Shown in pieces: positions 5,498 through 54,058 of a DNA stretch of 64,000 nucleotides. Position numbers and translations under genes: made by a program. This stretch comes from Patescibacteria group bacterium (GTDB lineage: Bacteria > Patescibacteriota > Microgenomatia > UBA1400 > PJMF01). Location: assembly GCA_040879165.1 (NCBI GenBank), contig JBBDKV010000017.1, forward strand, positions 23,739 to 87,738. Direction: 5' to 3'. The notes beneath the pieces are model-generated. The model saw only the letters and a program-made list of their open reading frames with translations. It was not told where the DNA came from and ran no database searches. The stretch's first letter is position 1, and each line of letters opens with the position of its first letter.

Positions 5498-5523
5498 AAA
5501 CCTTTATTTATATGCATGGAAGC

Positions 5524-6875: not shown

Positions 6876-6911
6876 AAGCCAGGAGGAATTTGGGCAGATA
6901 TAGACCTGCTA

Positions 6912-7430: not shown

Positions 7431-7565
7431 ATATTTTAATTGATATATCAATACGTGGGTAGAGTACGGGAGCTTGTTAGCAATCTTTTTTCATACTATA
7501 TTGAAGATCAAAATAATATGAACATCTCATACTAAACTAAACCCGAGCCAAGTAAGATACAGAAT

Positions 7566-8171
7566 TTACTTTTCCCAAACAATATGCCCATTCATATCAT
7601 TCTTTTCATAGACCTCAAGAATTTCAGTACAAAACCGCAGGAGGTTTTCATCACCCGATTGTTTAGCTATTTCATATAGCCGAATATACATCTTCTTGCC
7701 TGTTTCAGTTTGCTTGAAGTTTTTCTTCAAAAAATTATGTTGACTACAAAGCGTTTGTCCGTTTTGTAGTGTTGCTCCACCACCCAAGTCTTTGGGTTTA
7801 ATGTGGTCAGCATGAATTTCAACTCCTTCATTTCTACCTCTGCCACATATTACACACTTGTAGTCATCTCTCTCAAAAATTTGCTTTCTCAATGCTGGAG
7901 TAAAGTCTTCAAGCTCTCTGATTTGAATCATACTAGGGTCATATCTATAAATGCCCTTGTTCACTTTGATGAGGTATCCATTTTGGTGCAACTTTCTGAT
8001 TGCTCTATCAGGGTCTCGAAATATCTCACCAGTTCTTTCTAGCCATTCACCTGTAGCCCAGTCAACAATTTCAGGATGACTAATATCTCTCTTGGGATGT
8101 CCTTCAAAATACTCCATTATCAATCCACTTTGGCTGAGCTTTTCTTTTTTTATATCGTCGCTTTTTGACAT
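7566..8171 (-). CDS. HNH endonuclease, putative restriction endonuclease of a type II R-M system
   Basis: CVICGRGRNEGVEIHADHIKPKDLGG...NGQTLCSQHN is an HNH motif with flanking Cys pairs. The N-terminal region is wHTH-like. It lies 17 nt downstream of a C5-methyltransferase on the same strand. Confidence 0.65.
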   Translation of the reverse strand: MSKSDDIKKEKLSQSGLIMEYFEGHPKRDISHPEIVDWATGEWLERTGEIFRDPDRAIRKLHQNGYLIKVNKGIYRYDPSMIQIRELEDFTPALRKQIFERDDYKCVICGRGRNEGVEIHADHIKPKDLGGGATLQNGQTLCSQHNFLKKNFKQTETGKKMYIRLYEIAKQSGDENLLRFCTEILEVYEKNDMNGHIVWEK

Positions 8172-8187
8172 ATTACTTCTTCCTTTT

Positions 8188-9183
8188 TTATTTTAACACT
8201 TTGAGTAAAGATGCGATTTGTTTTGCAACTGCTTCAACCACAGGGACTGCAACAGAGTTCCCAAATTGCCTGTACATTTGTGTCCTAGAAACAGGCACTT
8301 TGAAATCCTTAGGAAATCCCATAATAGCCTTACATTCATTTACAGTGAGAAGTCTCAGCCCAGTTTCTCCATCTTTGACAAATGTTCCAGTAAGTCTTTG
8401 TATCTTGTGGTAAGTCGAAACAAGAGTTTTTACTTGTATCCTTGAACTTTTATCAATGATCTTTGGTCTACCATCATCTTTTTTGAACAGGTAGCTTTCT
8501 TGCAAGTGCTTCGATATGGAATATCCAGAAACGTCTTGCTCAAGAAAATCATTTATGTATGATTTTTCCACGCCACCTGTAGGGAAAGTGAAACTTCTCT
8601 CCTTGAGAAGGTCTTTTCTAAATCCAACAATGTAAATCCGCTTTCTAAATTGTGGCACTCCAAAATCAGAAGCATCTAAAACTTTAGTAAAAACTTTATA
8701 CCCAGCTTCATCTAAGGAGTCTAAAATAACTTGAAATGTTCTTCCACTATCGTGACTGACTAAACCTGGCACATTTTCTAATAAAAATGCTTTGTTTTTT
8801 TTATTCTCGATAATTCTCAGTACGTCATAAAATAGAGTACCCTGAGTAGCATGTAGAAACCCTTGTCTCTTGCCAATAGAACTGAATGGTTGACAGGGGA
8901 ATCCGCCTACTAATACATCAAAATCTGGAATTTCTTTCTCATCTATCTTTGTTATATCACCATGTGGAATCTCTCCAAAATTAGCCTCATAGGTTTTTTG
9001 ACTATGCTTGTCCCACTCTGAAGAAAAAACACATTCTCCCCCAGCATTTTCAAATGCAATTCTAGTGCCTCCAATCCCAGCAAATAAATCAATAAACTTA
9101 AAATCACCAACAGTTGATCTTTTATTCTGGTCTTCAAACAGACTAGGTGCACTCATTTTAGATAATTTTTTTGTGTTACTCAT
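8188..9183 (-). CDS. DNA (cytosine-5)-methyltransferase
   Basis: Motif I FIDLFAGIGG, motif IV GGFPCQPFS and motif VI ENVPGL, with target-recognition and C-terminal motifs present. Confidence 0.9.
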   Translation of the reverse strand: MSNTKKLSKMSAPSLFEDQNKRSTVGDFKFIDLFAGIGGTRIAFENAGGECVFSSEWDKHSQKTYEANFGEIPHGDITKIDEKEIPDFDVLVGGFPCQPFSSIGKRQGFLHATQGTLFYDVLRIIENKKNKAFLLENVPGLVSHDSGRTFQVILDSLDEAGYKVFTKVLDASDFGVPQFRKRIYIVGFRKDLLKERSFTFPTGGVEKSYINDFLEQDVSGYSISKHLQESYLFKKDDGRPKIIDKSSRIQVKTLVSTYHKIQRLTGTFVKDGETGLRLLTVNECKAIMGFPKDFKVPVSRTQMYRQFGNSVAVPVVEAVAKQIASLLKVLK

Positions 9184-9207
9184 ATCAAAGACTCGTTTTT
9201 GAAAAAA

Positions 9208-9408
9208 CTATGTTTCCAATTTTCGTTTATCTAAAAAGTTTTGCAAATCATCTTCCTTGACTCGCAGTTCTTGCTCCAATTTGTAGGCGGGCAGTTTTTT
9301 CGTTTTGATATAGCGGTAAATGGTCATCTTGCTCACTTTGAGAGCTTGGGCGACTTCTTCAATGGTGAGGAGCGTCTGTGTTTGCACTATATTGATAGTA
9401 TCACTCAT
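9208..9408 (-). CDS. Small HTH DNA-binding protein (AlpA/excisionase-like), possible controller of the R-M operon
   Basis: 66 aa. LTIEEVAQALKVSKMTIYRYIKTKKLP is a classic HTH. It sits directly upstream of the methyltransferase on the same strand. Confidence 0.6.
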   Translation of the reverse strand: MSDTINIVQTQTLLTIEEVAQALKVSKMTIYRYIKTKKLPAYKLEQELRVKEDDLQNFLDKRKLET

Positions 9409-9463
9409 TCACATTTGTTTACAAGGGTGATATAGTTTTTCTCAAGAATTATCAAATATAAGT

Positions 9464-10621
9464 ATGAAACAAAGTTTTTTCCATCAAGATTTTTTGAAAC
9501 ACGTTGATCTCAATCTTTTCAACCAGTATTTACTTTCCAAGAATCTAACTGAAATAAGTACTCCAGATAGTAAGGCTGACAAAGCTCAAGCAATGTCTGA
9601 CTATTTAGTCAGTTTGACCGATGCGGACGGCGATATTGTGGTCAATGATCTTATGGTAGTGAGAGATTTGTCATCAGACGGCGGTGTGATTGCCATTATG
9701 GAGCTATCGGAGGAAGCTACTTTCAAGCAAGCCCTCTCGGAGCTGACAAGTAACATCAATCGGGTGCTATATTGCTTACTATACAAACCAGATTTGATTG
9801 AACCAGCTCTCAAGTTGAAGCAAATCACAGCGACTGAAAACTTCCACGTTCGCAGGGTGACAAAAAGCGTTGAGGCTGACCAAGTATTAGCCAAGCTCCC
9901 TGAGTTCAAACTTGAGTTGACTGCTTTCTTGCAGAAAGAGGAAGCAAAAGGAGCGAACTGCCAGATAGATAGCTATCAATTCAAAGATAGAGTTTGCTTT
10001 TTTGCCTATCCAGAAGATCATCCCAAATCATTGAATCTTTATCAGAACGGGAAGCTCAATCCTACAGTAGTGCATCCTAGCTTTGAGTTGGTTTTTGTCT
10101 ACTATCCAGAAATGAAACAGCTAGAAATAGCAACCCGAATGAGAAGCAAAAAATTACAAACTCTGTTCAACCTTTTCAATCGTGCTGTGCTAGACGACTC
10201 TCAGCCAGTACCAAACAACCAAGACACACTCAACCTCGATGTGTTGCTTACTGATGGATTTAGCTTCATTTTTGACCCGAGCTACCAAGTTGATTCTATA
10301 TGCGTAACTCAGATTCGCCTTGACTACAAGTACAACCGCAAGAAACGGTTTATCACCCATGTTGATGAGGGTAACGGCATGGAACAAATCTTAGAGGAGT
10401 TAAAATATCGCAATTTACGAGGTGATAGTCTACAACACTATGTGGTTGCCCAAGCTACCATCAAATTGCGTTTCAAACAGTTTGGACGAAGCAATCGGGT
10501 CACCACACTCTTGACCGCACCAGACAAAATAAAGCTCAATGAAACAAATCCTCACCAACTCGCCAAGAAGTGCCTACAGGACTGGAAAATCATCAATGAG
10601 CCACTCACAGACGCTGAATAA
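9464..10621 (+). CDS. Hypothetical protein, 385 aa, no recognisable domain
   Basis: Long uninterrupted ORF with a plausible RBS. Its 3' end overlaps the start of the next ORF, indicating translational coupling. Confidence 0.5.
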   Translation: MKQSFFHQDFLKHVDLNLFNQYLLSKNLTEISTPDSKADKAQAMSDYLVSLTDADGDIVVNDLMVVRDLSSDGGVIAIMELSEEATFKQALSELTSNINRVLYCLLYKPDLIEPALKLKQITATENFHVRRVTKSVEADQVLAKLPEFKLELTAFLQKEEAKGANCQIDSYQFKDRVCFFAYPEDHPKSLNLYQNGKLNPTVVHPSFELVFVYYPEMKQLEIATRMRSKKLQTLFNLFNRAVLDDSQPVPNNQDTLNLDVLLTDGFSFIFDPSYQVDSICVTQIRLDYKYNRKKRFITHVDEGNGMEQILEELKYRNLRGDSLQHYVVAQATIKLRFKQFGRSNRVTTLLTAPDKIKLNETNPHQLAKKCLQDWKIINEPLTDAE

Positions 10622-11675
10622 GCTACTAGATGCAGGTATCAACATCAAGGACTTTCAAATAAGTGCTAAAGATTTAGACCAACAATTTAGGCAGGTTGGT
10701 AACATCTTACTCAATCTTGGCTGGTTTACCCAAGATTATGCCACTGGTTATCAATGCTCGCAGTGCGGTGCTGTTCATGAGGTGGTGGCTTTCAATGGCA
10801 AGTATTTTATTGGCTGTGATGTGGACGGAGATTCTGGTTTAGAGACACTGAGCAAAGATGATCTATTGATCTATCGTTTTTCAGCCACGAAGTTCTTTGA
10901 ATGGTTGCAACAATCTTTCTCCTTGCAGGGTAATGTTGAATCCACTGACGATAGGGTATTACTTGGTCAGGGAACGGTAAACGGCAAGCAACGTCTGTTT
11001 ATATTCAGCCATGAAAACTCACCCGAAGCAAGAAAAGTACTCTGTCAGAAATACCTTATCAGTCAGCCTTTGATTCTCTACCTCAGCACCATTCACGATA
11101 ATCACAATCAGGGATATGACATCAACTTGGCTCATTATCTAGTAGTGCAAGAAATGGGTTTGAGCATCGATACAAACTCAGCTTTGAGTGCGATTGCAGA
11201 TTCCATACCGCCGTTTGCAGGTGAGGCTCAGACAAACTCAAGCATTTATGCCATTGAATTGAAGCTTGTGGGTGACAAAATTGTGCTAGTTGGCACAGCT
11301 CTTGGTGGTTCGTATCCAGCGTTCAAAGCCAAGAAGAAAAGAAGCACTGCCATGTCTAGATTGTTGAGAACCCTGCTCAATTTGCATGAGAACGATAAGG
11401 AAACTACCTCTGTAATTTACAAACAAAGCGTGCTTGAGGCGAACTACATTGACCCACGAAAAAACAAGCTAAATGACCTTGCAGAAATTGATCTCAGTCA
11501 AGACAAGCGACCACTGAGTGAACTCTGCTCACTCTTACTACCATACTTACTCGCACACCGACACCACAAAGACGACGGCTTAGTGGTCGAGTTCAAACCC
11601 GCTTTGTCGCAAGAGAGCTGGAACAGACTCCCAGACTCAGAAAAACAGAAGATTCTAGCTTCAAAGGCTAATTAG
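10539..11675 (+). CDS. Hypothetical protein, about 360-378 aa, with an N-terminal CxxC motif
   Basis: Long ORF. CSQCGAVHE suggests a zinc-ribbon-like element. The likely true start is Met at 10592 (MSHSQTL), overlapping the upstream ORF by about 30 nt. Confidence 0.5.
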   Translation: MKQILTNSPRSAYRTGKSSMSHSQTLNKLLDAGINIKDFQISAKDLDQQFRQVGNILLNLGWFTQDYATGYQCSQCGAVHEVVAFNGKYFIGCDVDGDSGLETLSKDDLLIYRFSATKFFEWLQQSFSLQGNVESTDDRVLLGQGTVNGKQRLFIFSHENSPEARKVLCQKYLISQPLILYLSTIHDNHNQGYDINLAHYLVVQEMGLSIDTNSALSAIADSIPPFAGEAQTNSSIYAIELKLVGDKIVLVGTALGGSYPAFKAKKKRSTAMSRLLRTLLNLHENDKETTSVIYKQSVLEANYIDPRKNKLNDLAEIDLSQDKRPLSELCSLLLPYLLAHRHHKDDGLVVEFKPALSQESWNRLPDSEKQKILASKAN

Positions 11676-11837
11676 CCAAACCTCGTCAATCCTCAGTTTG
11701 TGCAATTACTTGCATTTAGCAACGTCCATCAGTTGTGTTTTTTAGTACTTTCTGCGTTTGCGTGCATTTAGCGTTTTGGATCAAAAACCTAGGTGACAAT
11801 CCTCTTGCGAACATAAAAATTAGCAATGAGGATAAGC

Positions 11838-12086
11838 ATGAAAGACGCACACAATTACTTCACTACTTACGATCTGAACCTGTCAGCCGTATTGGTTTCA
11901 CAAAACTTCATTTTAGAAGAAATAGAAAAACCTGAAAGCGGGAAAGCTCTTTTTTACTTCAAAAAAAGCGATGCTCTGCTAGAGACTATTGATCGCTACT
12001 GGAAAAACCAGCTCCAAATCTCCCCTCAAACCTTATTTACCAGTTTGAAATCCATCAAGAACCGCCTGTACAGCGGTTGGAAGTAA
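11838..12086 (+). CDS. Small DUF5659-like protein typical of CPR and phage mobile elements
   Basis: MKDAHNYFTTYDLNLSAVLVSQNFILEEIEK...ALFYFKK resembles the small DUF5659 family. Assignment from memory, not a search. Confidence 0.35.
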   Translation: MKDAHNYFTTYDLNLSAVLVSQNFILEEIEKPESGKALFYFKKSDALLETIDRYWKNQLQISPQTLFTSLKSIKNRLYSGWK

Positions 12087-12286
12087 AAGTCATGTTGAGT
12101 CGTGCCTCAGTGACAAAGTTCCAGCAAATCTACTTCCAAGAGTACGGCATCAATCTAGATGAGCAGACTGCCTACGAGCTGGCGAATAACCTCGCAAACC
12201 TGTACCGCAGTGTCTACCTGCCAGACACAAAAAATATAAGTCAAAAATATGAAACGAACACATCAACTCAGACGAATCAAAACTAA
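12077..12286 (+). CDS. Hypothetical small protein
   Basis: 69-aa ORF overlapping neighbours by a few nt in a compact same-strand array. Confidence 0.25.
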   Translation: MEVKVMLSRASVTKFQQIYFQEYGINLDEQTAYELANNLANLYRSVYLPDTKNISQKYETNTSTQTNQN

Positions 12287-12302
12287 GAAGTCTTACTCAT
12301 CT

Positions 12303-12668
12303 ATGGAGTTGGCTAACTTGCTTGGTGTTCATGTTCAAACAGTACGATCATGGGCAAGTAATGGTTTAGAACCCCTCAGCCCAAACGCTCACAGACCTTT
12401 GTTTTTAGGTCAGACAGTGAAGTCCTATCTTTCCAAACTGCAAGACGCTCGCAAAGTGAAGCTCCAAGTGGGTGAGTTCTACTGCCTACGGTGTCGAGTC
12501 GCCATCACGCCAGAGTTAGTGATTGAGGTTGATCGTCATGTCACCATCGGCAAGCACAAAGACTCGATTTTACTTACCGCCCACTGTCCACAGTGCAACT
12601 GCCCCGTCAATAAGTTTTCTAGCCGAATATCAACCAACCAGAAAGGAAAATATGCTCCTGACGCATAA
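12303..12668 (+). CDS. HTH (MerR/excisionase-like) protein with a C-terminal Cys4 zinc ribbon
   Basis: MELANLLGVHVQTVRSWASNG is an HTH. CLRC...CPQCNC gives four Cys. It lies upstream of the integrase genes. Confidence 0.5.
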   Translation: MELANLLGVHVQTVRSWASNGLEPLSPNAHRPLFLGQTVKSYLSKLQDARKVKLQVGEFYCLRCRVAITPELVIEVDRHVTIGKHKDSILLTAHCPQCNCPVNKFSSRISTNQKGKYAPDA

Positions 12669-12996
12669 ACGGTACGAAGTCCCTGGCGACTGGTATCAAC
12701 CCAAACAGCAACTCCTCACCAAGCCGAGTGTGATGTTGGCTGAGTACTACGAAACATCATCAAGCTCTGGTGATTGGAGTGGGTACTTCTTGCAGAAAAT
12801 CGGTCAAGCCTATCACCTGATTTTATTCACTCAGGAAAACCTTTATCCAGAGGATGGCTTTGAGTTGATGACAGGTGTGGTAATCCACACATTCAAATCC
12901 GAGCCAAACAAACCCGATGTTGCAAAGGTCATTATCTCAGTACTTGAACACTCTCGTAATCACTCACTTAGTAATAACGCAGAAATGAAAGGATAA
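12652..12996 (+). CDS. Hypothetical protein
   Basis: The ORF starts at ATG 12652, overlapping the stop of the previous gene. No motif recognised. Confidence 0.35.
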   Translation: MLLTHKRYEVPGDWYQPKQQLLTKPSVMLAEYYETSSSSGDWSGYFLQKIGQAYHLILFTQENLYPEDGFELMTGVVIHTFKSEPNKPDVAKVIISVLEHSRNHSLSNNAEMKG

Positions 12997-13148
12997 CTAT
13001 GTTGAATCACGCTCAATTATCGTTTTTAGCAGTAATACTCTGGGTTGGAATAACCTATCTGGCAACTGCCAAGAAAGAGTTTCCCTGGCATCTAGTAATT
13101 TTGGCAGTAATTATCACACTCGAATTACTCTCGAAATAGAAAGGCATT

Positions 13149-14264
13149 ATGTCAAAAACCAAAGACAAAAACGAACGCATCAAACGCAAGTATCTCAACT
13201 GGCTACAAGAGGCTGAGGGATTTTCAGAGAAGTCGATCACGGCGGTAGAAAAAGCTCTGTGGAAATATGAAGATTTTATCAAGGATTCAGACTACAGCAC
13301 GTTCAATCATAAGCAGGCTGAACAATTCAAGAAATATCTGACAACCAACAAAAATAAGGTCAGTAACAAAATCCTCTCACTGAGATCGCAATATCACATC
13401 CTCAGGCACGTTCGCAACTTCTTGACTTGGTTATCTGGACAGCTTGGCTATAAGTCCCGTATCTCAACCTACGATGTCCAGTACTTGCAACTGAGCAAAA
13501 AAGATCGGCGGGTTGCGACCTCTGCCTCACTTCCAAAGTATCCCACCCTTGAGCAGATCAAACAGCTTTGTAGCTTTTCAGTTCAAACTGAGCTTGACCA
13601 GCGAGATCGAGCGTTGATAGCCTTTACTGCTCTAACAGGCATGAGAGATCAAGCGATTGTTACCTTGCCACTTGGTTGTTTTGACCAAGAGAAAATGCTC
13701 GTGCAACAGCTCCCAAGCAAAGGTGTTCAAACCAAGTTCAGCAAGGACATTTATACTACTCTTTTTCAGGTAGATGAAACGCTGGCTGGCTACTTTTTGA
13801 AGTGGTACGCTTATTTGAAAACGGAGAAGCATTTTGGGCTGGAAGATCCGATATTTCCGAGTACAGAGGTAGGTTTTGTTAGTAAAAATCACCATGCCTT
13901 TACCCCTATTGGTATTAGTAAAGAGTTCTGGGCAGATACCAATCCGATGCGAAAGATTTTTCAGGAGCGAAGCAAGCAAGCGAACGTGCCTTACTACACC
14001 CCCCATAAGTTCAGGCACTTCATCATCAATGAGGCTCAGAAACACATCACGAGCATTGAACAGCTCAAGGCTCTCAGTCAGAACCTGGGTCATGAAAACA
14101 TAAGCACCACTTTTCATGGCTACGGAGCAATTGATACTTATCGAGTCAATGAGTTGGTCAGTTCTATTGATTTTTCAGGACTTCCCAAGAACCAAGCAGA
14201 AGAAGCTCAACTTGAAAGAATCGCTGATCTTGTCGCTAAAAAATTAGGAAGAAATGAGCTATAA
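13149..14264 (+). CDS. Tyrosine recombinase / phage-type integrase
   Basis: The C-terminal catalytic region has HKFRHF and LGHENISTTFHGYGAI, the R..H..R..Y signature. Confidence 0.85.
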   Translation: MSKTKDKNERIKRKYLNWLQEAEGFSEKSITAVEKALWKYEDFIKDSDYSTFNHKQAEQFKKYLTTNKNKVSNKILSLRSQYHILRHVRNFLTWLSGQLGYKSRISTYDVQYLQLSKKDRRVATSASLPKYPTLEQIKQLCSFSVQTELDQRDRALIAFTALTGMRDQAIVTLPLGCFDQEKMLVQQLPSKGVQTKFSKDIYTTLFQVDETLAGYFLKWYAYLKTEKHFGLEDPIFPSTEVGFVSKNHHAFTPIGISKEFWADTNPMRKIFQERSKQANVPYYTPHKFRHFIINEAQKHITSIEQLKALSQNLGHENISTTFHGYGAIDTYRVNELVSSIDFSGLPKNQAEEAQLERIADLVAKKLGRNEL

Positions 14265-14294
14265 TGTTAGTGTTGACCCAAGTTATAGTGGTGC

Positions 14295-16040
14295 ATGAAA
14301 AAAGGCAGTTCTGCCAACGTATGCACTATGTTGGGTCAACCAGGACTGTCTTTTTATATGAGAATAAGAAAAACACTTACTAGCCTCAAGCCAAGAAAAT
14401 CTGGTCACCCCAAGCAGAATCGGTACATTCTATATGCCCGTAAGTCTACTACCTCAGAAGACCGTCAAGTTGCTTCGATTGAGTCCCAGATCGAAGTGAT
14501 GAAAGAGGTAGCTCGTGAGCATGATTTGGAAGTTTCAGAGGTATTGAGTGAAGCAGGTTCAGGCTTCAAGATAGGTAGACAAGCGTTCAATGCCATGATC
14601 GAAAAGATCGAAAGCGGTGAAGCTGATGGCATCATTGTCTGGAAGCTCTCACGCTTATCTCGTAACCCTGATGATGCGGGCAAAATCATGGGCTTACTGC
14701 AACGAGGTGAAATCAAGCACATTCGCACCGCAGACCGCAACTGGTATCCAGAAGACAACGTGATGATGATGTATGTTGAGTTTGGTATGACCAACCAGTT
14801 TAGTCGTGATCTGAGTTCAGACACTCGCCGAGGATTAGTCAAAAAAGCTGAGCGTGGTTGGTTGCCGAACGCCATTCTCCCACTTGGCTATATGCACAGC
14901 CCATACAAAAAGTTAGGTGATGAAGAAATTATCATTGATAAAAGCCGTTTTGACTTGATTCAAGAGGGTTTGAAGCTGGTAGCTTCTGGACAGAAAACAC
15001 CTGTTGAAGCTCATGGCTATTTAGTTACTCAAGGTGTTGTGGGAAAAAGAAGTGAAGCATTACCTAAAAGCACTTGGTACAAGATGTTAGTTGAACCACT
15101 ATACGCAGGGACTTTTGAGTATCCAATAGGTAGTGGTCAGTTTTATGACTCCAAAGCACCCAGAGCCATAGAACCGACTGAGTACGATGCCATTCAAGTT
15201 GTTTTAGGTAGAAAAGATAAGCCTCGACCCAAGACTCACTTTTTGCCTTACACGGGTTTGATGAAGTGCGGTGAGTGTGGTTGCTCCATTACTGCTGAAA
15301 AGAAGCGGAAAGTGCAGAAAAATGGTAACGTGCATCACTATATCTACTATCACTGTACCAAGAAAAAAGGCGAGTGTGGTCAGCCGTGTACGCCTGTTGA
15401 TACACTTGAGAAGCAATATAAGTCCATTTTGAAACGTATCAAAATCCCCTTAGCCTTTCACGAATGGGCTATTGATGAGATCAAATATGACCAAGAAAAA
15501 GTCATCAGGGATCGTGACACCAGCCTACAACGAACTCGAACAAACTACGATGACTGCCTGAGTGAGATTGATAACTTGGTAAAGAAATACCTTGAGGGGA
15601 AAGTGCCAGAAGACTACTATGATCGCAACCTTGCCAAGCTCAATAAAAACAAAAAGACATTGGCGAAAATCTTGGAGGGTATAGACAAAGGTGTCGATGA
15701 AAACTTGGAAAAAATCGATAAAGACCTAGATTTTGCCGTAACAGCCAGAAGACGCTTCAACCAAGGCAACGACTCCAAACGTCGAGAGATCATTTCCTAT
15801 TTAGGCTCGAACCTCATCCTCAAAGACCATTCACTCGGCATTGAGCTGAGAAAACCGCTGGAATTGGTGGCAGAAATTGCAGAAGAAGTCAATGCTGTTG
15901 CAGAAAAGTTCGAACCTCTAGAAAATGCTGATAATTCGGCACAATTTAAGTTGTATTTGTCTGAAAATCCTGCAATGGGTGGTATACCGGACTTGAACCG
16001 GCGACCTCCGCTGCCACAGAGCGGCGCTCTAACCAACTGA
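14295..16040 (+). CDS. Large serine recombinase (resolvase domain + recombinase domain + zinc ribbon)
   Basis: YARKSTTSEDRQVASIESQ carries the catalytic Ser. GIIVWKLSRLSRN is also present. The CGECGC...YYHCTKKK zinc ribbon fits this family, as does the 581-aa length. The 3' end overlaps tRNA-His. Confidence 0.85.
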   Translation: MKKGSSANVCTMLGQPGLSFYMRIRKTLTSLKPRKSGHPKQNRYILYARKSTTSEDRQVASIESQIEVMKEVAREHDLEVSEVLSEAGSGFKIGRQAFNAMIEKIESGEADGIIVWKLSRLSRNPDDAGKIMGLLQRGEIKHIRTADRNWYPEDNVMMMYVEFGMTNQFSRDLSSDTRRGLVKKAERGWLPNAILPLGYMHSPYKKLGDEEIIIDKSRFDLIQEGLKLVASGQKTPVEAHGYLVTQGVVGKRSEALPKSTWYKMLVEPLYAGTFEYPIGSGQFYDSKAPRAIEPTEYDAIQVVLGRKDKPRPKTHFLPYTGLMKCGECGCSITAEKKRKVQKNGNVHHYIYYHCTKKKGECGQPCTPVDTLEKQYKSILKRIKIPLAFHEWAIDEIKYDQEKVIRDRDTSLQRTRTNYDDCLSEIDNLVKKYLEGKVPEDYYDRNLAKLNKNKKTLAKILEGIDKGVDENLEKIDKDLDFAVTARRRFNQGNDSKRREIISYLGSNLILKDHSLGIELRKPLELVAEIAEEVNAVAEKFEPLENADNSAQFKLYLSENPAMGGIPDLNRRPPLPQSGALTN

Positions 16041-16052
16041 GCTAATACCACC
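15977..16052 (-). tRNA. tRNA-His (GTG)
   Basis: Manual cloverleaf. G-1 plus acceptor GTGGTAT/ATACCAC with C73. D-arm GCTCAGTTGGTTAGAGC. Anticodon loop CTGTGGC. T-arm GCCGG-TTCAAGT-CCGGT. Confidence 0.85.
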
Positions 16053-16200: not shown

Positions 16201-16953
16201 TTAGTAACCTGAAACTACACAAACACCACTGTTTAATGCTTCATCAAGTGGATTACTCACAACTTTGCCATCAATGGTATAGGTCGTATCCTGTTCTCCA
16301 CTGAAGAGATCTGCGCTCATGCTTGTTCCAACAGATTCTGCCATGGCTCCATCTCTATAAAACTGCGCTACAGTCACTCGCTCATTTTCAGAATACCGGC
16401 ATTCCATTTTGCCATTATTTGGCATTTGCTCAACATACAAGCACTTTCCGTCAACAATTCCAAAAATCTCTTTTTCCAACATATCACCTGTGAGTGGGTG
16501 TTCAAATGTAGTTTTGTAATCAGTGCAAGAATCTAGTTTATCAGCAAAAACCATTTGAGCGTCTTGTGCTTCGCTTAGAGCAACAGGTTCCTCTTGTTGT
16601 GCAGCTGTTCCAGTAGCCGTTTCGATCTCATTTTCACCAGATAGCTCAACTTCATTTGACAGTGCTGGTGTTTCTTCTGATTTGAATAAAGTTTGGCTGG
16701 CCAGATATGCTCCACCACCTACTAGTGCCACACCTACTAAAATTGCTGCAATAATTTTCCAAGTATTGCTTGAAGCAACAGCCGGACCTGCTGAAGACAA
16801 TTCTGGCACATCCTGCGTAGTAAGACTACTAAGTGCCTCCTCGGCATCTTGGTCTTGCCAACCATTGGCTACCAGCGATGATTTAATTTGCTCTCGACTC
16901 AAACCCTGTTGACTTTGTTCTTTAATGTATTCAAGTACTTGTTGATTCACCAT
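16201..16953 (-). CDS. Hypothetical membrane-anchored protein (single TM)
   Basis: 250 aa with a central hydrophobic helix (IIAAILVGVALVGGGAYL) and an acidic extracytoplasmic C-terminal domain. Confidence 0.45.
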   Translation of the reverse strand: MVNQQVLEYIKEQSQQGLSREQIKSSLVANGWQDQDAEEALSSLTTQDVPELSSAGPAVASSNTWKIIAAILVGVALVGGGAYLASQTLFKSEETPALSNEVELSGENEIETATGTAAQQEEPVALSEAQDAQMVFADKLDSCTDYKTTFEHPLTGDMLEKEIFGIVDGKCLYVEQMPNNGKMECRYSENERVTVAQFYRDGAMAESVGTSMSADLFSGEQDTTYTIDGKVVSNPLDEALNSGVCVVSGY

Positions 16954-16984: not shown

Positions 16985-17051
16985 ACACCAGACTCGAAAC
17001 GGCAACCTTCCTGCTTAGCGGAACGCTCTAACCAACAGAGCTACTACCACC
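16985..17051 (-). pseudogene. Degenerate tRNA-like fragment resembling the 5' half of tRNA-His
   Basis: GGTGGTAGTAGCTCTGTTGGTTAGAGCG matches the tRNA-His acceptor and D-arm at 26 of 28 positions. The anticodon arm forms only 4 bp with an 8-nt loop, and no T-arm or acceptor closure is present. Confidence 0.3.
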
Positions 17052-17143
17052 AAGAATCCGTATTATACTAGAAATTTAGCGATTTTTATACCGAAACGTC
17101 CTAGTTTGTGCCTATTTTGAATAAAAATTGATATAATACCGCC

Positions 17144-18224: not shown

Positions 18225-18300
18225 TGGTGCGCCAAGCTGGACTCGAACCAGCGACCTACTGCTTAGAAGGCAGTTGCTCTATCCACTGAGCTATTGGCGC
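18225..18300 (-). tRNA. tRNA-Arg (TCT)
   Basis: Acceptor GCGCCAA/TTGGCGC. D-arm GCTCAGTGGATAGAGC. Anticodon stem ACTGC/GCAGT with loop CTTCTAA. T-arm GCTGG-TTCGAGT-CCAGC. CCA encoded. Confidence 0.85.
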
Positions 18301-18490
18301 GCATTGAGTATGTTAACCAGCGAGCTCTCTGCCAAATGTCTTGCTTACCTATTCAGACATACGCACATCTACCACACCAGTCCAAGTATTATAACTCAAG
18401 CAGCAGCAAAAAACTCCCACGCACTCGCTCAGCACTGACTTGGCAAATTTACCGCTAGTTAGAGTTTGCATATCTTAGTAAGATGAGTAC

Positions 18491-39115: not shown

Positions 39116-39211
39116 GTGCAGTATGAGCACAAAACCAGATAAAAAAATTATTCAGCAAAGAGTTGATCCGCGCCACACATTCATACAAAAAAATCCAGCT
39201 TCGCGGGATTT

Positions 39212-39238
39212 TTCTGTATGAGCGGGTGAAGGGAGTCT
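39212..39238 (-). repeat. Partial direct copy of the tRNA-Gly 3' end (about 25 nt with a 3-nt indel)
   Basis: tttttctg(tat)gagcgggtgaagggagtc here versus tttttctgagcgggtgaagggagtc at the genuine tRNA 3' end (39363-39386). Confidence 0.6.
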
Positions 39239-39334
39239 ACGACTCACTCGTTTCACTCGTTCGCATGCATTAGCCAGCCCCGCTGGAGCGGGGTTGGCGG
39301 CAGAACCAAAGAGTTGATCCATGCCACCACCTCA

Positions 39335-39367
39335 GAAAAATATTGACCCTGTCGGGTCATTATTTTT
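39335..39367 (-). terminator. Rho-independent terminator downstream of tRNA-Gly
   Basis: Hairpin gaccc-tgtc-gggtc flanked by an A-run and a T-run, reading on the minus strand. Confidence 0.5.
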
Positions 39368-39370
39368 CTG

Positions 39371-39442
39371 AGCGGGTGAAGGGAGTCGAACCCTCGTCAC
39401 CAGTTTGGAAAACTGGAGCTCTGACCGTTGAGCTACACCCGC
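39371..39442 (-). tRNA. tRNA-Gly (TCC)
   Basis: Acceptor GCGGGTG/CACCCGC. D-arm GCTCAACGGTCAGAGC. Anticodon stem CCAGT/ACTGG with loop TTTCCAA. T-arm GAGGG-TTCGACT-CCCTT. Confidence 0.85.
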
Positions 39443-40977: not shown

Positions 40978-41061
40978 GGCCCGGTGGCGGAATTGGTAGA
41001 CGCGTCAGACTTAAAATCTGATGATGGCAACATTGTGTGGGTTCGAGTCCCACCCGGGCCA
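40978..41061 (+). tRNA. tRNA-Leu (TAA), class II with a long variable arm
   Basis: Acceptor GGCCCGG/CCGGGCC. D-loop GAATTGGTAGA. Anticodon stem TCAGA/TCTGA with loop CTTAAAA. T-arm GTGGG-TTCGAGT-CCCAC. Confidence 0.85.
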
Positions 41062-41086
41062 CAATTGAGTTATAATACAGAACGAA

Positions 41087-41153
41087 TCAGGGAGTAGCTC
41101 AGATGGTAGGTGCGCCCCGCTTAGCGGGGTGAGGTCACTACCTGCGACCCTGA
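41087..41153 (+). pseudogene. Degenerate tRNA-Pro-like copy
   Basis: The 5' half (GGGAGTAGCTCAGATGGTAG-GTGCGC) is near-identical to tRNA-Pro, with a 1-nt deletion in the D-stem. The anticodon region is replaced by a tight CCCCGC-TTA-GCGGGG hairpin, with no T-arm or acceptor closure. Confidence 0.4.
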
Positions 41154-41179
41154 TACAATATATTCGGCGTATGTATAGC

Positions 41180-41252
41180 CGGGGAGTAGCTCAGATGGTA
41201 GAGTGCGCGCTTTGGGAGCGTGAGGTCGCAGGTTCGAGCCCTGTCTCCCCGA
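41180..41252 (+). tRNA. tRNA-Pro (TGG)
   Basis: Acceptor CGGGGAG/CTCCCCG. D-arm GCTCAGATGGTAGAGT. Anticodon stem CGCGC/GCGTG with loop TTTGGGA. T-arm GCAGG-TTCGAGC-CCTGT. Confidence 0.85.
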
Positions 41253-41281
41253 CATAGTAAGCAACGCGAGTAAAAAGGGGA

Positions 41282-41323
41282 GAACAAGGCGAGAAGTTTA
41301 CCCCGCAAAGCGGGGAGTCCTGT
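41282..41323 (+). repeat. GAGAAGTTTACCCC + CCCCGC-AAA-GCGGGG hairpin + partial copy of the tRNA-Pro 3' end (cctgtctccccga)
   Basis: A 13-nt exact repeat of tRNA-Pro 41240-41252 lies at 41310-41322. It is preceded by a perfect GC-rich hairpin and a leader also found downstream of tRNA-Gln. Confidence 0.6.
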
Positions 41324-41351
41324 CTCCCCGATAAGTAGTTAGGAGTTCAAA

Positions 41352-53809: not shown

Positions 53810-53926
53810 TCATACAGAATAACTGGCTCAAGCCAGTTTTTCTGTATTTGTCCCCAGATAGAGGCGGGGCTGTTGCGCCGTCGAGATGCGCAGCATCCCG
53901 AGTAGTGCTGGGAGCGAAGCGAACAG

Positions 53927-54022
53927 TGAATCCTAGCGGGGCATCAGTGAACGCAGTGAACTGAGATTTCGCGTAGGATGAGAAGTTTACCCCACTATGG
54001 CGGGGAATCCTAGCGGAGCATC
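53927..54022 (+). repeat. Two partial direct copies of the tRNA-Gln 3' end, the second preceded by GAGAAGTTTACCCC + a CCCCAC-TATG-GCGGGG hairpin
   Basis: gaatcctagcggggcatca (53927-53945) and aatcctagcggagcatca (54005-54022) repeat tRNA 53791-53809. The leader gagaagtttacccc (53979-53992) is identical to the one at 41282-41295. Confidence 0.6.
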
Positions 54023-54032
54023 AGATAATAAA

Positions 54033-54058
54033 AACCAGCTTGGACTGGTTTTTTTGTA
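54033..54058 (+). terminator. Rho-independent terminator-like hairpin
   Basis: ccagcttggactgg followed by ttttttt. Confidence 0.5.

What the first reader, a model, noticed from the sequence alone, without database searches (positions are those of the whole stretch)
41087..41153. Degenerate tRNA-Pro-like sequence between tRNA-Leu and tRNA-Pro, with its anticodon region replaced by a CCCCGC-TTA-GCGGGG hairpin
The 5' acceptor and D-arm are almost identical to the genuine tRNA-Pro 90 bp downstream. The middle is the same GC hairpin class seen in the att-like modules, and no T-arm follows. It looks like a recombination scar that fused a tRNA 5' half to the repeat module.
Basis: seen in the sequence. 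Interest (0 to 1): 0.5.

Follow-up and report, generated by a model that had tools for sequence, protein, structure and literature searches.

The report
Dead tRNA-Pro copy with hairpin insert
This is a non-functional, remodelled copy of the neighbouring proline tRNA gene whose anticodon was replaced by a small GC hairpin, and that hairpin belongs to a conserved element, absent from Rfam, that sits in tRNA-gene fragments next to tRNA genes in Patescibacteria.

Summary
Window 41088-41153 copies tRNA-Pro(UGG), which lies 92 nt downstream: 20/20 identical bases in the acceptor 5' strand and D arm, plus GTGAGGTC after the anticodon stem. The inner anticodon stem and loop are replaced by CCCCGC-TTA-GCGGGG, and no T arm remains. 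ARAGORN (even at 80% thresholds) and the Rfam tRNA model (E up to 10) do not call it, so it is not a suppressor tRNA.

It starts 26 nt after tRNA-Leu, exactly where a syntenic relative has its real tRNA-Pro.

The hairpin is not a junction. tRNA-derived sequence continues on both sides of it, so it replaces the anticodon loop inside a near full-length copy.

Two other 5' pseudo-tRNAs show the same kind of replacement: pseudo-His in this window and pseudo-Ser in a metagenome contig.

The hairpin class (CCGC-N2-4-GCGG) belongs to a conserved ~75-nt element. I found it in 17 distinct loci, downstream of Pro, Gly, Glu, Ser and Val tRNA genes. In the 11 loci where the cognate tRNA could be read it sits in the T loop of a partial tRNA copy, right after TTC in 10 of them, and is followed by a copy of the tRNA's 3' end (usually from position 57). 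One of its stems shows compensatory changes, and Rfam has no match.

Best reading: a pseudogene made by local duplication and then colonised by the hairpin element. How the element moves or acts is unresolved.

The parts
40978..41061 (+). tRNA-Leu(UAA), the upstream anchor. In relatives tRNA-Pro follows it after 23-38 nt.
   Evidence: ARAGORN; Rfam 65 bits. Synteny: L047, L050, L062, L075.
41065..41078 (+). Promoter-like TTGAGTTATAATAC (-10 TATAAT), just upstream of the pseudo-tRNA. The identical 14-mer lies upstream of tRNA-Arg (18386-18399, - strand).
   Evidence: The simple sigma-70 scan did not call it because there is no -35. Inference only.
41088..41153 (+). Pseudo-tRNA-Pro. It has an acceptor 5' strand (CAGGGAG, G2->A), a D arm, the outer anticodon stem, a hairpin replacing the anticodon loop, a variable loop, a degenerate T region, and CCCTG+A.
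   Evidence: Not called by ARAGORN or Rfam.
41113..41131 (+). 8-bp stem with a TTA triloop: CGC-CCCGC-TTA-GCGGG-GTG. The core CCCCGC-TTA-GCGGGG is 41115-41129. It replaces GC-TTTGGGA-GC of the real gene, so the UGG anticodon is gone.
41140..41149 (+). ACCTGCGACC, an exact reverse complement of tRNA-Pro GGTCGCAGGT (41224-41233). It helps turn the pseudo-tRNA into a long rod-like quasi-palindrome (ATCAGGG...CCCTGAT, 41086-41155).
   Evidence: I7; fold -32.7 kcal/mol, z=-3.1.
41151..41159 (+). TGATACAAT, an extended -10-like motif 20 nt upstream of the real tRNA-Pro. It overlaps the 3' end of the pseudo-tRNA.
   Evidence: Read from the sequence. Relatives have TGCTAAAAT or ATGATAAAAT at similar distances. 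Inference.
41180..41252 (+). Functional tRNA-Pro(UGG). An identical sequence occurs in the relative whose ABC protein is 81% identical (L051).
   Evidence: ARAGORN; Rfam 62.5 bits; L051.
41283..41331 (+). Degenerate downstream module: ...GAGAAGTTTA, then the hairpin CCCCGC-AAA-GCGGGG (41301-41315), then a copy of tRNA-Pro positions 57-73, GAGTCCTGTCTCCCCGA (41315-41331). The copy carries the T59 variant typical of relatives, not the C59 of the window's own tRNA.
   Evidence: Full-length orthologous modules: L043, L045, L062.

Best explanation
Window 41088-41153 is a tRNA-Pro(UGG) pseudogene. It is a recent local duplicate of the gene (92-nt period). It occupies the slot right after tRNA-Leu where relatives keep their working tRNA-Pro, while the working copy now sits 92 nt downstream with its own -10-like motif.

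The copy cannot decode:
- The 11 nt holding the inner anticodon stem and the UGG loop were replaced by a 13-nt palindrome, giving an 8-bp stem with a 3-nt loop.
- The T-stem 5' strand and T loop are scrambled.
- The acceptor 3' strand is lost.

The palindrome is this lineage's form of a small GC hairpin (core CCGC-N2-4-GCGG). That hairpin belongs to a conserved ~75-nt structured element of Patescibacteria, which is found inserted in the loops of redundant partial tRNA-gene copies beside functional tRNA genes.

Shown:
- The identity blocks and the loss of tRNA features.
- The position relative to tRNA-Leu.
- The recurrence of the hairpin at tRNA fragments.
- The existence, conservation and one covarying stem of the element family.

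Inferred:
- The order of events: duplication or recombination at the tRNA gene, then capture of the hairpin in the anticodon loop of the dispensable copy, then drift or template-switch remodelling into a rod-like quasi-palindrome.
- That the product has no function.
For: 1. Not a tRNA. ARAGORN at default and 80% thresholds and the Rfam tRNA model at E<=10 give no call. The anticodon loop is 3 nt and there is no GTTCRA T loop.

2. Copy of the neighbour. 20/20 identical bases at offset 92, plus GTGAGGTC. Copy and gene share the lineage-specific D loop GATGG-TAG, where relatives have GATGGCTAG. The duplication is therefore younger than the split from L047, L048 and L062.

3. Ancestral slot. There are 26 nt between tRNA-Leu and the pseudo-tRNA, and 26 nt between tRNA-Leu and the real tRNA-Pro in syntenic L047. 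The gap is 23-38 nt in L062, L075 and L050. The window's real tRNA-Pro is 118 nt away.

4. The hairpin class is tRNA-linked. CCCCGCNNNGCGGGG is found 2 times against 0.01 expected. All 5 CCCC[N3-12]GGGG sites in the window lie beside tRNA genes or fragments.

5. The same replacement recurs:
   - pseudo-tRNA-His 16985-17052(-) has TTCCGC-TAA-GCAGGAA in place of its anticodon loop and has also lost its acceptor 3' strand;
   - L070 2061-2130 is a pseudo-tRNA-Ser with TCCCGCCAAGGCGGGA replacing the anticodon-stem 5' strand, plus a second GC hairpin in the D loop.

6. Link to the element family. The L070 and L051 hairpins contain CCGCCAAG(CG), which is the element's conserved 5' block. Model R1 aligns the window's CCCCGC-tcca-GCGGGG (downstream of tRNA-Gly) as the collapsed P1 stem of the element, E=2.7e-4.

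7. The family is real.
   - 17 distinct loci score 52-94 bits.
   - The P2 hairpin has compensatory changes at 4 of 5 pairs, 95% of cells are paired, and 0/500 shuffles reach the covariation score.
   - In the 11 loci with a readable cognate tRNA the element lies 3' of TTC in a T-arm copy in 10, the exception being after AATCC in L070.
   - It is followed by an exact copy of 8-19 nt of the cognate tRNA's 3' end, starting at position 57 in most loci, and this copy tracks lineage-specific tRNA-Pro variants.

8. Recombinases act at tRNA genes in this window. A large serine recombinase overlaps tRNA-His, and a tyrosine integrase and an island of defence genes lie beside it.
Against: - No relative closer than 81% protein identity covers the interval, so neither decay nor conservation of the pseudo-tRNA could be observed directly.
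- Divergence is very uneven: 5' part 21/22 identical, T region scrambled. Simple neutral decay does not predict this.
- The acceptor region keeps pairing through a G2A/C71U-like double change, or a shifted 7-bp stem ATCAGGG/CCCTGAT. The whole segment folds better than shuffles (z=-3.1). It has promoter-like motifs on both sides. All of these would also fit a selected structured RNA.
- The same hairpin replacement in three independent pseudo-tRNAs hints at a specific process or function that I cannot name.
- The element's covariance model does not hit the pseudo-tRNA itself.
- No recombinase or transposase lies next to tRNA-Pro.
- The interval is missing from the two independent Logan contigs of the same run.
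Confidence: 0.6

Rival explanations
1. The segment is a selected, transcribed structured RNA or DNA element derived from tRNA-Pro, not junk. Candidates are an anticodon-less tRNA-like decoy or regulator, or a long-hairpin leader or processing element for the tRNA-Leu/tRNA-Pro transcript.
For: - Rod-like fold of -32.7 kcal/mol, z=-3.1, with 0/200 shuffles as stable.
- A terminal 7-bp stem ATCAGGG/CCCTGAT is maintained, and the 10-nt inverted copy adds pairing.
- A TATAAT-containing 14-mer lies upstream, shared with the tRNA-Arg leader.
- The same architecture (intact 5' part, GC hairpin instead of the anticodon) recurs at tRNA-His and at L070 tRNA-Ser.
Against: - No conservation data exist.
- Pseudo-His cannot form an acceptor stem and pseudo-Ser diverges after position 43, so the three copies share no common overall fold.
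- No Rfam family matches.
- Most of the z-score comes from the GC hairpin alone.
- Relatives with a plain tRNA-Leu/tRNA-Pro pair do without it.
Confidence: 0.15
2. It is a hybrid attachment site (attL-like) left by a site-specific recombinase. The recombinase would have integrated a small circular element carrying its own tRNA-Pro copy, with the palindromic hairpin as the crossover site. The host 5' part was joined to element sequence, and the element-borne tRNA-Pro now does the work, as in tRNA-dependent lysogeny.
For: - The two hairpins (41115-41130 and 41300-41315) flank the real tRNA-Pro as 94% matching repeats 169 nt apart (I1).
- The downstream tail keeps the ancestral T59, while the working gene has C59.
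- A serine recombinase and a tyrosine integrase are in the window, at tRNA-His.
- At tRNA-His a 1-kb ORF-bearing segment separates the pseudo-copy from the real gene, and the promoter is duplicated too.
- There are precedents for elements that break a host tRNA and supply a replacement (PMC10865867) and for a 5' tRNA fragment upstream of an intact gene (PMC3293823).
Against: - tRNA-identical sequence lies on both sides of the hairpin in pseudo-Pro and pseudo-Ser, so the hairpin is not the boundary between host and foreign DNA.
- The 'element' would be only about 92-185 nt, with no cargo.
- Pseudo-copy and real copy share a derived D-loop deletion.
- A 15-bp palindrome with a 3-nt centre is not a typical serine- or tyrosine-recombinase core (own knowledge).
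- No recombinase lies beside tRNA-Pro.
Confidence: 0.15
3. It is an unusual functional tRNA, for example an ochre suppressor reading UAA through a GCUUAGC loop (anticodon UUA), perhaps lacking a T arm.
For: If the two inner pairs open, a 7-nt loop GCTTAGC with TTA in the centre can be drawn on a 6-bp stem. The acceptor 5' strand and the D-arm 5' part are intact.
Against: - There is no call from ARAGORN at 80% thresholds, in mitochondrial mode, or with introns allowed, and none from Rfam tRNA at E<=10.
- Position 33 would be C rather than U, and 32/38 and 33/37 would pair.
- The D-stem 3' strand has a deletion, there is no T arm, and two of seven acceptor pairs are broken.
- The predicted fold is a rod, not a cloverleaf.
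- Neighbouring ORFs match complete Pfam families (ABC_tran, MFS_1, HhH-GPD, MgsA_C) under the standard table-11 stops.
Confidence: 0.01
4. It is an assembly artefact: a chimeric join of strain variants in the MAG at the tRNA-Leu/tRNA-Pro repeat.
For: Logan contigs of the same run end exactly at the tRNA-Leu 3' end (L087) and start exactly at the tRNA-Pro 5' end (L001). This leaves the 116-nt interval uncovered and suggests a branch or a coverage drop there.
Against: - A mis-join cannot invent a novel sequence that combines a tRNA-Pro 5' part with a family-specific hairpin.
- Comparable pseudo-tRNAs exist at tRNA-His in the same contig and in an unrelated JGI contig.
- Short bubble unitigs or poor coverage of a GC hairpin would explain the breaks equally well.
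Confidence: 0.05

Closest known systems
tRNA-gene fragments and duplicated tRNA 3' ends at integration sites of integrase-bearing elements (att sites in tRNA genes; decayed integrated elements flanked by att repeats)
   Same: Partial copies of a tRNA gene lie beside the intact cognate gene. The 3' copies usually start inside the T loop at position 57 and run towards the 3' end. Recombinase genes and an island abut tRNA-His in the same window.
   Different: The finding is a 5'-side copy with tRNA identity on both sides of an internal hairpin. Only 26 nt separate it from the real gene. The 3' copies are interrupted by a conserved ~75-nt structured insert rather than following an element body, and no integrase is adjacent.
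tRNA-dependent lysogeny (Guerrero-Bustamante and Hatfull 2024, PMC10865867)
   Same: Integration destroys the host tRNA gene, and a second copy of the same isotype supplies the function. The result is a dead copy next to a live one.
   Different: That system involves a full prophage with a tyrosine integrase and a ~10-bp common core. Here there is no prophage or integrase at tRNA-Pro, and the two copies share derived characters.
Archaeal tRNA-Thr 5' fragment upstream of an intact gene, with a recombinase-bearing insert between them (Sugahara et al. 2012, PMC3293823)
   Same: A 5' tRNA fragment lies upstream of the intact cognate gene. The window's pseudo-His / 1-kb ORF / tRNA-His arrangement looks very similar.
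   Different: That case is archaeal and tied to intron gain. It has no GC hairpin replacing the anticodon loop, and the pseudo-Pro case has no intervening cargo.
Small palindromic mobile repeats: REP/BIME with RAYT transposases, IS200/IS605-derived palindrome-associated elements, Rickettsia palindromic elements (own knowledge)
   Same: They are short GC-rich hairpin units, present in several copies and able to sit inside genes. For the ~75-nt element: insertion 3' of a short fixed motif (TTC), a hairpin at the right end, and no target duplication.
   Different: No Y1/HUH transposase, RAYT or TnpB was found in the sequence examined. The copies are restricted to tRNA-derived sequence. The two ends are not similar hairpins. 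The hairpin stem tolerates G-U pairs on the tRNA-sense strand only.
TnpB omega-RNA and type V CRISPR RNAs (scaffold, terminal hairpin, 16-20-nt 3' guide; T-rich motif 5' of the target) (own knowledge)
   Same: This concerns the downstream modules, not the pseudo-tRNA. The modules have a conserved scaffold with a covarying terminal hairpin. One or two nt later comes a stretch of 8-19 nt identical to the tRNA gene sequence, which in the tRNA lies directly 3' of TTC. That stretch co-varies with the tRNA across lineages.
   Different: No associated nuclease gene was found. The scaffold is only ~75 nt. Several tails are decayed (L080, L086). There is no Rfam match. A self-targeting guide would need an inactive or homing-only effector. 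None of this was tested beyond sequence geometry.
Group I introns in anticodon loops of Patescibacteria tRNA genes (Nakagawa et al. 2026, PMC13011429)
   Same: An insertion in the anticodon loop of a tRNA gene in the same phylum, which makes standard tools miss the gene.
   Different: Those introns are self-splicing group I ribozymes inserted at position 35/36 within an intact anticodon loop. Here 13 nt replace 11 nt, the anticodon is deleted, no Intron_gpI match exists, and the T arm is gone.

Membership tests
Functional tRNA (including suppressor) | Cloverleaf recognised by tRNA predictors or covariance models | tested here: not met
   ARAGORN at default, 80% thresholds, mitochondrial mode and with introns allowed gives no call. 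At 60% there is only a spurious tRNA-Tyr, flagged as a pseudogene at 50%. Rfam RF00005 gives no hit at E<=10.
Functional tRNA (including suppressor) | 7-nt anticodon loop with U33, on a 5-bp stem | tested here: not met
   The stem is 8 bp with a TTA triloop. If opened to GCTTAGC, position 33 is C and 32/38 and 33/37 are complementary.
Functional tRNA (including suppressor) | T arm with GTTCRANYC loop and a 7-bp acceptor stem | tested here: not met
   ACTACCTGCGA replaces GCAGGTTCGAG. The acceptor has 5 pairs plus 2 mismatches, or a shifted 7-bp stem that uses flanking bases.
tRNA pseudogene or duplicate of the adjacent gene | Significant sequence identity to a cognate functional tRNA gene, together with loss of essential tRNA features | tested here: met
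   20/20 plus 8/8 identical blocks at a constant 92/91-nt offset; blastn-short E=3e-6; shared derived D loop.
att-site scar of an integrase-mediated insertion in a tRNA gene | The identity block ends at the crossover point, with foreign DNA beyond it | tested here: not met
   tRNA identity resumes 3' of the hairpin (GTGAGGTC; CGA-CCCTG). The same holds in L070 (CTAATCCTG).
att-site scar of an integrase-mediated insertion in a tRNA gene | A recombinase gene and element body between or beside the repeats | tested here: inconclusive
   None lies at tRNA-Pro; the neighbours are MFS, a 105-aa ORF and an ABC transporter. A large serine recombinase, a tyrosine integrase and an island do lie at tRNA-His, 25 kb away.
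Conserved ~75-nt tRNA-linked element of Patescibacteria (defined here; model R1) | Match to the covariance model (P1 GCCA.GCG/CGC.TGGC, then TAAT, then the P2 hairpin) | tested here: not met
   With filters off, no hit overlaps 41087-41153. The only significant window hit is the tRNA-Gly module at 39261-39307(-), E=2.7e-4.
Conserved ~75-nt tRNA-linked element of Patescibacteria (defined here; model R1) | GC mini-hairpin with a CCGC...GCGG core located inside tRNA-derived sequence | tested here: met
   41115-41129 has the same 6+6-nt stem as 41301-41315 and 39278-39293. The latter aligns as the element's collapsed P1. The L051 and L070 hairpins carry the element's CCGCCAAG block.
Intrinsic (Rho-independent) terminator | GC hairpin followed directly by a T run | tested here: not met
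   The hairpin is followed by GAGGTCAC, and no terminator-like site is called on the + strand. True terminators with A and T tracts follow tRNA genes in relatives.
Group I intron in a tRNA anticodon loop | A self-splicing ribozyme of hundreds of nt matching Intron_gpI, inserted in an otherwise intact tRNA | tested here: not met
   The replacement is 13 nt. There is no Rfam intron hit at gathering score or at E<=10. The anticodon and T arm are missing.
IS200/IS605-type palindrome-associated element or TnpB guide RNA (considered for the downstream modules) | An associated TnpA(Y1) or TnpB gene, or a match to known omega-RNA families | tested here: inconclusive
   No Rfam match. By ORF length and the first 60 residues (no Pfam run), ORFs flanking the metagenome loci look like ordinary chromosomal genes, plus a Fic-like protein and a serine-recombinase fragment. 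Only 30 of 58 large window ORFs were scanned with Pfam. The geometry fits: insertion 3' of TTC, a terminal hairpin, and a flank of 8-19 nt matching the tRNA.

The most novel reading that the evidence does not exclude
The hairpin and the tRNA fragments may be visible parts of an uncharacterised RNA-guided or hairpin-directed system of Patescibacteria.

A conserved ~75-nt structured RNA (stems P1 and P2) is encoded some 70-85 nt downstream of tRNA genes. It ends in a stretch identical to the neighbouring tRNA gene's 3' end (8-19 nt, usually from position 57), and in the tRNA that stretch lies directly 3' of TTC. This is the geometry of a TnpB or type V guide RNA: scaffold, terminal hairpin, 3' guide, T-rich adjacent motif.

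tRNA genes would then be the programmed targets, for homing or insertion of the element or for control of tRNA genes. Pseudo-tRNAs whose anticodon or D loops carry collapsed copies of the element, like the one in this finding, would be by-products or decoys of that system.
Probability: 0.12. Interest if true: 0.85.

Novelty: new variant of a known kind. Interest (0 to 1): 0.5.

Why it matters
On its own, a dead tRNA copy is ordinary. It matters for annotation: it should not be called a tRNA or a suppressor.

What is unusual is the context it exposes. Patescibacteria have very small genomes, yet their tRNA genes are repeatedly flanked by partial copies of themselves. Those copies carry a conserved structured insert of ~75 nt, or its collapsed GC hairpin, in the D, anticodon or T loop. 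Rfam has no such family.

The element's tail tracks the sequence of the neighbouring tRNA across lineages. That pattern needs either ongoing sequence exchange or selection for matching.

If the element is mobile, it is a tRNA-loop-specific parasite that persists in reduced genomes. If it is an RNA gene, it may be a new tRNA-directed guide or regulator. Either way it gives a concrete, searchable motif for studying how tRNA loci are remodelled in this phylum.

Tried and rejected
- **Suppressor or odd tRNA.** ARAGORN in relaxed, mitochondrial and intron modes and Rfam at E<=10 were all negative.
- **Terminator.** No T run follows the hairpin.
- **Known RNA family for the pseudo-tRNA or the modules.** Rfam at gathering score on the window and on 10 loci, and at E<=10 on two regions, returned only tRNAs.
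- **Phage origin of the window.** BLAST against phages matched only tRNA genes. The genes are chromosomal Patescibacteria genes.
- **Metagenome scan for the pseudo-tRNA hairpin with its flanks.** No hits.
- **Viral-contig scans.** The module motif gave two chance hits in coding sequence. Two patterns of the 75-nt element gave none.
- **Idea that each module is a full-length decayed tRNA copy.** Local alignment of tRNA positions 1-56 against the region upstream of the insert is no better than shuffles. Only the last ~8-10 nt (T-stem 5' strand plus TTC) resemble the cognate tRNA: 5-8 of 10 in the nine loci where the junction could be placed, mean 5.5 over all eleven, against 4.4 for other isotypes.
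- **Weak model hits at 10734 and 22267.** Both lie in coding sequence and were dropped.
- **Closer relatives.** The 81% relative's contig starts exactly at tRNA-Pro and the 74% relative's contig ends inside it. The state of the tRNA-Leu/tRNA-Pro spacer in the nearest relatives is therefore unknown.
Full report
**1.

The sequence at 41088-41153 reads CAGGGAGTAGCTCAGATGGTAG-GTG-CGC-CCCGC-TTA-GCGGG-GTG-AGGTC-ACTACCTGCGA-CCCTG-A. The genuine tRNA-Pro(UGG) lies at 41180-41252 (ARAGORN; Rfam 62.5 bits).

- **Identity.** Twenty consecutive bases (41090-41109) are identical to 41182-41201, offset 92 nt. GTGAGGTC recurs at offset 91. Searching the window with the tRNA gives E=3e-6 for the 20-mer.
- **Hairpin.** CCCCGC-TTA-GCGGGG sits at 41115-41129. 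The pattern CCCCGCNNNGCGGGG occurs twice in 64 kb, against 0.01 expected from shuffles.
- **What was replaced.** Relative to the real gene (CGC-GC-TTTGGGA-GC-GTG), 11 nt of inner stem and loop were replaced by 13 nt. The UGG anticodon is gone and the stem has 8 pairs with a 3-nt loop.
- **Not a tRNA.** There is no call from ARAGORN at default or 80% thresholds, in mitochondrial mode, or with introns allowed. At 60% it offers only a meaningless 'tRNA-Tyr', which it flags as a pseudogene at 50%. The Rfam tRNA model gives nothing at E<=10.

**2. The copy is more than a 5' half**

- MAFFT aligns CGA-CCCTG (41145-41152) to the T-loop/T-stem 3' strand CGAGCCCTG of the real gene and leaves an 8-nt gap for the acceptor 3' strand. 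The segment looks like positions 1-65 of the tRNA, with a scrambled T-stem 5' strand.
- ACCTGCGACC (41140-41149) is the exact reverse complement of tRNA-Pro GGTCGCAGGT.
- The terminal stem ATCAGGG/CCCTGAT and a GGTAG/CTACC pairing add to this, so RNAfold gives a rod-like fold: -32.7 kcal/mol, z=-3.1.
- The hairpin is flanked on both sides by tRNA-identical sequence, so it is an internal replacement and not a breakpoint.

**3. Source and synteny**

- The window is chromosomal DNA of a Patescibacteria MAG. Its neighbours include an ABC transporter, an MFS transporter, endonuclease III and MgsA. Exact protein matches are named 'Patescibacteria group bacterium' and come from a 113,573-bp contig.
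- The representative-genome collection held only relatives at <=48% identity. Relatives were therefore reached through protein look-ups.
- Syntenic loci L047, L050, L062 and L075 carry tRNA-Gly, MFS, tRNA-Leu(UAA) and tRNA-Pro(UGG) in the same order, with tRNA-Pro 23-38 nt after tRNA-Leu.
- In L047 the gap is 26 nt. In the window the pseudo-tRNA also starts 26 nt after tRNA-Leu, whereas the working gene is 118 nt away. The pseudo-tRNA therefore occupies the ancestral tRNA-Pro slot.
- Pseudo-copy and working copy share the D loop GATGG-TAG, where relatives have GATGGCTAG. The duplication happened within this lineage.
- The nearest relatives could not settle the state of the spacer. The 81% relative's contig starts exactly at tRNA-Pro and the 74% relative's contig ends inside it.
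- Two Logan contigs of the window's own run also stop at the tRNA-Leu 3' end and start at the tRNA-Pro 5' end. The interval rests on the MAG assembly, and the population may be heterogeneous here.

**4. The hairpin class is tied to tRNA-derived sequence**

CCCC[N3-12]GGGG occurs five times in the window, always beside a tRNA gene or fragment: in the pseudo-tRNA, downstream of tRNA-Pro, downstream of tRNA-Gly, and twice downstream of tRNA-Gln.

Four of the six tRNA genes have partial copies nearby:

| tRNA | Partial copy |
|---|---|
| Pro | 5' copy (the finding), and a 3' tail at 41315-41331 |
| Gly | 3' tail at 39220-39237 |
| Gln | 3' tails at 53928-53946 and 54005-54023 |
| His | 5' copy at 16985-17052(-) |

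The His copy has TTCCGC-TAA-GCAGGAA instead of its anticodon loop. It keeps a decayed T arm, has lost its acceptor 3' strand, and carries its own copy of the promoter. An unrelated JGI contig (L070) has a pseudo-tRNA-Ser 137 nt upstream of the real gene: positions 1-14, a GC hairpin, positions 15-27, TCCCGCCAAGGCGGGA in place of the anticodon-stem 5' strand, then CTAATCCTG. Three independent 5' pseudo-tRNAs therefore share a GC hairpin at the anticodon position.

**5. The downstream 'att-like modules' are a conserved element**

In relatives, the region after tRNA-Gly (L047, L048, L050) and after tRNA-Pro (L043) aligns over ~85 nt. A metagenome scan with two conserved blocks returned 33 stretches of DNA. 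Sixteen of them (13 distinct sequences after removing duplicates) are genuine AT-rich loci with the same architecture, and the rest are chance hits in GC-rich coding sequence.

The architecture, in order:

1. a tRNA gene (Pro UGG/GGG, Gly UCC/CCC, Glu, Ser or Val);
2. a terminator with A and T tracts;
3. about 30 nt of spacer;
4. the T-stem 5' strand plus TTC;
5. the insert TGCCGCCAAGCGA, ~28 variable nt, ACGAAGCGCGTGGCTAAT;
6. a hairpin such as ACCC-GGA-GGGT;
7. one or two nt;
8. a copy of the tRNA's 3' end, starting at position 57 in most loci (8-19 nt exact).

Supporting results:

- **Structure.** RNAalifold proposes P1 (GCCA.GCG/CGC.TGGC, with one compensatory change, in L043) and the terminal hairpin P2.
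- **Family size.** A covariance model scores 17 distinct loci at 52-94 bits.
- **Covariation.** On that alignment 95% of cells pair, P2 has double changes at 4 of 5 pairs, and no shuffle of 500 reaches the covariation score. P1 is nearly invariant. Part of that is ascertainment, because the search pattern fixed those blocks.
- **True insertion.** The junction is 3' of TTC in 10 of the 11 loci where it could be read. In L076 it lies after the second TTC of the T loop, and both flanks shift accordingly. The insert therefore really sits inside a copy of the tRNA's T arm.
- **Tails track the tRNA.** The tails follow lineage-specific tRNA-Pro variants: C59/U67 in L075, U69 in L059 and L079, U67 in L080.
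- **Not known elsewhere.** Rfam has no match at gathering score or at E<=10, and IMG/VR contigs have none.
- **Tandem units** occur in L045.

**6. How the window's hairpin connects to that element**

- The model's only significant hit in the window is the tRNA-Gly module (39261-39307, - strand, E=2.7e-4). There GCCAA-CCCCGC-tcca-GCGGGG-CTGGC aligns as P1 with its long loop collapsed.
- The hairpins of L051 (CCCCGCCAAGCGG) and L070 (CCCGCCAAGGCGGG) contain the element's 5' block CCGCCAAG(CG).
- The window's Pro-down and second Gln modules share GAGAAGTTTACCCC immediately 5' of the hairpin and tail. Otherwise they are truncated and diverged, and in L051 the tail is gone.
- In this lineage the element is therefore decaying, and its GC mini-hairpin is what remains, including inside the pseudo-tRNA.
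- The model does not match the pseudo-tRNA itself. The link rests on the identical 6+6-nt stem and on the recurrence at tRNA fragments.

**7. Recombination machinery nearby**

- ORF 14295-16040 is a large serine recombinase (Resolvase plus Zn_ribbon_recom). Its last 64 nt overlap tRNA-His on the opposite strand.
- ORF 13149-14264 is a tyrosine integrase.
- An AbiEii toxin, an HNH endonuclease and a C5 methylase lie in the low-GC stretch at 4.5-10 kb.
- An island therefore abuts tRNA-His, and the pseudo-His copy lies just beyond it.
- Nothing comparable lies at tRNA-Pro.

**8. Interpretation**

- **Best-supported reading (0.6).** A recent local duplicate of tRNA-Pro has become a pseudogene in the ancestral slot. 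Its anticodon loop was replaced by the family's GC hairpin, and its 3' part was remodelled into a quasi-palindrome. The duplication mechanism (unequal exchange, or integration of a small tRNA-bearing circle) and the way the hairpin enters loops are inferred, not shown.
- **Rivals.** A selected structured RNA or decoy (0.15); a hybrid att site with the hairpin as crossover (0.15), weakened because tRNA identity spans the hairpin; an assembly artefact (0.05); a suppressor tRNA (0.01).
- **Precedents.** Integrative elements that break a host tRNA while supplying a replacement (PMC10865867), and an archaeal 5' tRNA fragment upstream of an intact gene (PMC3293823). Group I introns in Patescibacteria anticodon loops (PMC13011429) are a different thing.

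**9. Novelty and the most novel reading not excluded**

- The pseudo-tRNA is a new variant of a known kind.
- The conserved T-loop insert, with its tRNA-matched tail, is to my knowledge undescribed and is absent from Rfam 15.
- Its geometry resembles a TnpB or type V guide RNA: scaffold, covarying terminal hairpin, then 8-19 nt identical to the sequence that lies 3' of TTC in the tRNA gene. It equally resembles the right end of an IS200/IS605-type mini-element inserted 3' of TTC.
- No partner protein was found, several tails are decayed, and only about a third of the tRNA genes seen carry the element.
- I give the guide-RNA reading about 0.12.

Noticed in passing
window 4500-16051: Genomic island abutting tRNA-His. 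It has low GC (37.5% at 4-10 kb) and carries an AbiEii toxin (4548-5204), an HNH endonuclease (7566-8171), a C5 DNA methylase (8188-9183), a tyrosine integrase (13149-14264) and a large serine recombinase (14295-16040). The last 64 nt of the recombinase gene overlap tRNA-His (15977-16051, - strand) antisense. The far boundary of the island was not located.
   Followed up: partly
window 16985-17052 (- strand): Pseudo-tRNA-His, 1 kb upstream of the real tRNA-His, with a 250-aa ORF of no Pfam family (16201-16953) between them. 25 of its first 27 nt match the real gene. The anticodon loop is replaced by TTCCGC-TAA-GCAGGAA, the T arm is decayed and the acceptor 3' strand is lost. The promoter motif ctagtataata is duplicated too.
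   Followed up: partly
window 53812-54040: tRNA-Gln is followed by a terminator, then two tandem modules, each ending in a copy of the tRNA's last 19 nt (53928-53946, 100% identical; 54005-54023, 95%), then a second terminator. The second module shares GAGAAGTTTACCCC with the tRNA-Pro module.
   Followed up: partly
window 39156-39390 (- strand): Downstream of tRNA-Gly the block 'tRNA 3' end + terminator + ~34-nt flank' is duplicated with a ~150-nt period (39210-39237/39360-39387 and 39156-39189/39307-39340). The element with a collapsed P1 lies between the two copies.
   Followed up: partly
window 41065-41078 (+) and 18386-18399 (-): An identical 14-mer, TTGAGTTATAATAC (promoter-like), lies upstream of the pseudo-tRNA-Pro and about 85 nt upstream of tRNA-Arg. 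The long tRNA-Arg leader was not analysed.
   Followed up: no
window 18225-18300 (- strand): tRNA-Arg(UCU) encodes its 3' CCA. The other five tRNA genes in the window do not.
   Followed up: no
L087 1-60 and L001 1-74 (window 41064 and 41180): Independent Logan contigs of run SRR27977663 end exactly at the tRNA-Leu 3' end and begin exactly at the tRNA-Pro 5' end. The same happens in the 81% relative (L051 starts at tRNA-Pro). This suggests a graph branch, meaning strain heterogeneity in the tRNA-Leu/tRNA-Pro spacer, or a coverage drop at the GC hairpin.
   Followed up: partly
L070 2061-2130: Pseudo-tRNA-Ser upstream of the real tRNA-Ser(GCU), with two GC hairpin insertions: CCTGCCTGCCGGTAGGCAGG between positions 14 and 15, and TCCCGCCAAGGCGGGA in the anticodon arm. 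The same locus also has the 75-nt element downstream of the real gene.
   Followed up: partly
L045 8900-9033 (- strand): Two element units in tandem. A short one has P1 capped by an AAA loop (GCAAGTGC-AAA-GCACCTGC) and its own P2. It is followed directly by a full-length unit and a tRNA-Pro-like tail, GAGTCTTGTCACCCCGA.
   Followed up: no
L058 2680-2800, L064 4931-5006, L083 895-970 (- strands): A long variant of the element, with about 50 extra nt (GCTCGCTAAGAGAACGAAGTTATCA...CTATGGGGTAT) between GCTAAC and the P2 hairpin. It is inserted after AATCC rather than TTC.
   Followed up: no
L057 7060-7130 and L058 2870-2930 (-): In two loci (L057, L058; no tRNA is called upstream in L064 or L083 either) the element is preceded not by a recognisable tRNA but by a ~55-nt conserved unit with a -10-like motif. 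The unit has a T-arm-like hairpin (ATGGG...GGTTCCAGA...CCCRT), an acceptor-like 3' strand and a terminator. Neither ARAGORN nor Rfam calls it.
   Followed up: no
window 41088-41331 versus L062, L079, L080, L059, L075: The distance from the start of the tRNA-Pro slot to the start of the tail is 227 nt in the window. In canonical loci (tRNA + terminator + element) it is 213-226 nt. The working tRNA-Pro copy therefore seems to occupy the space where the terminator and the 5' part of the element would be. This was derived by hand from the coordinates.
   Followed up: no
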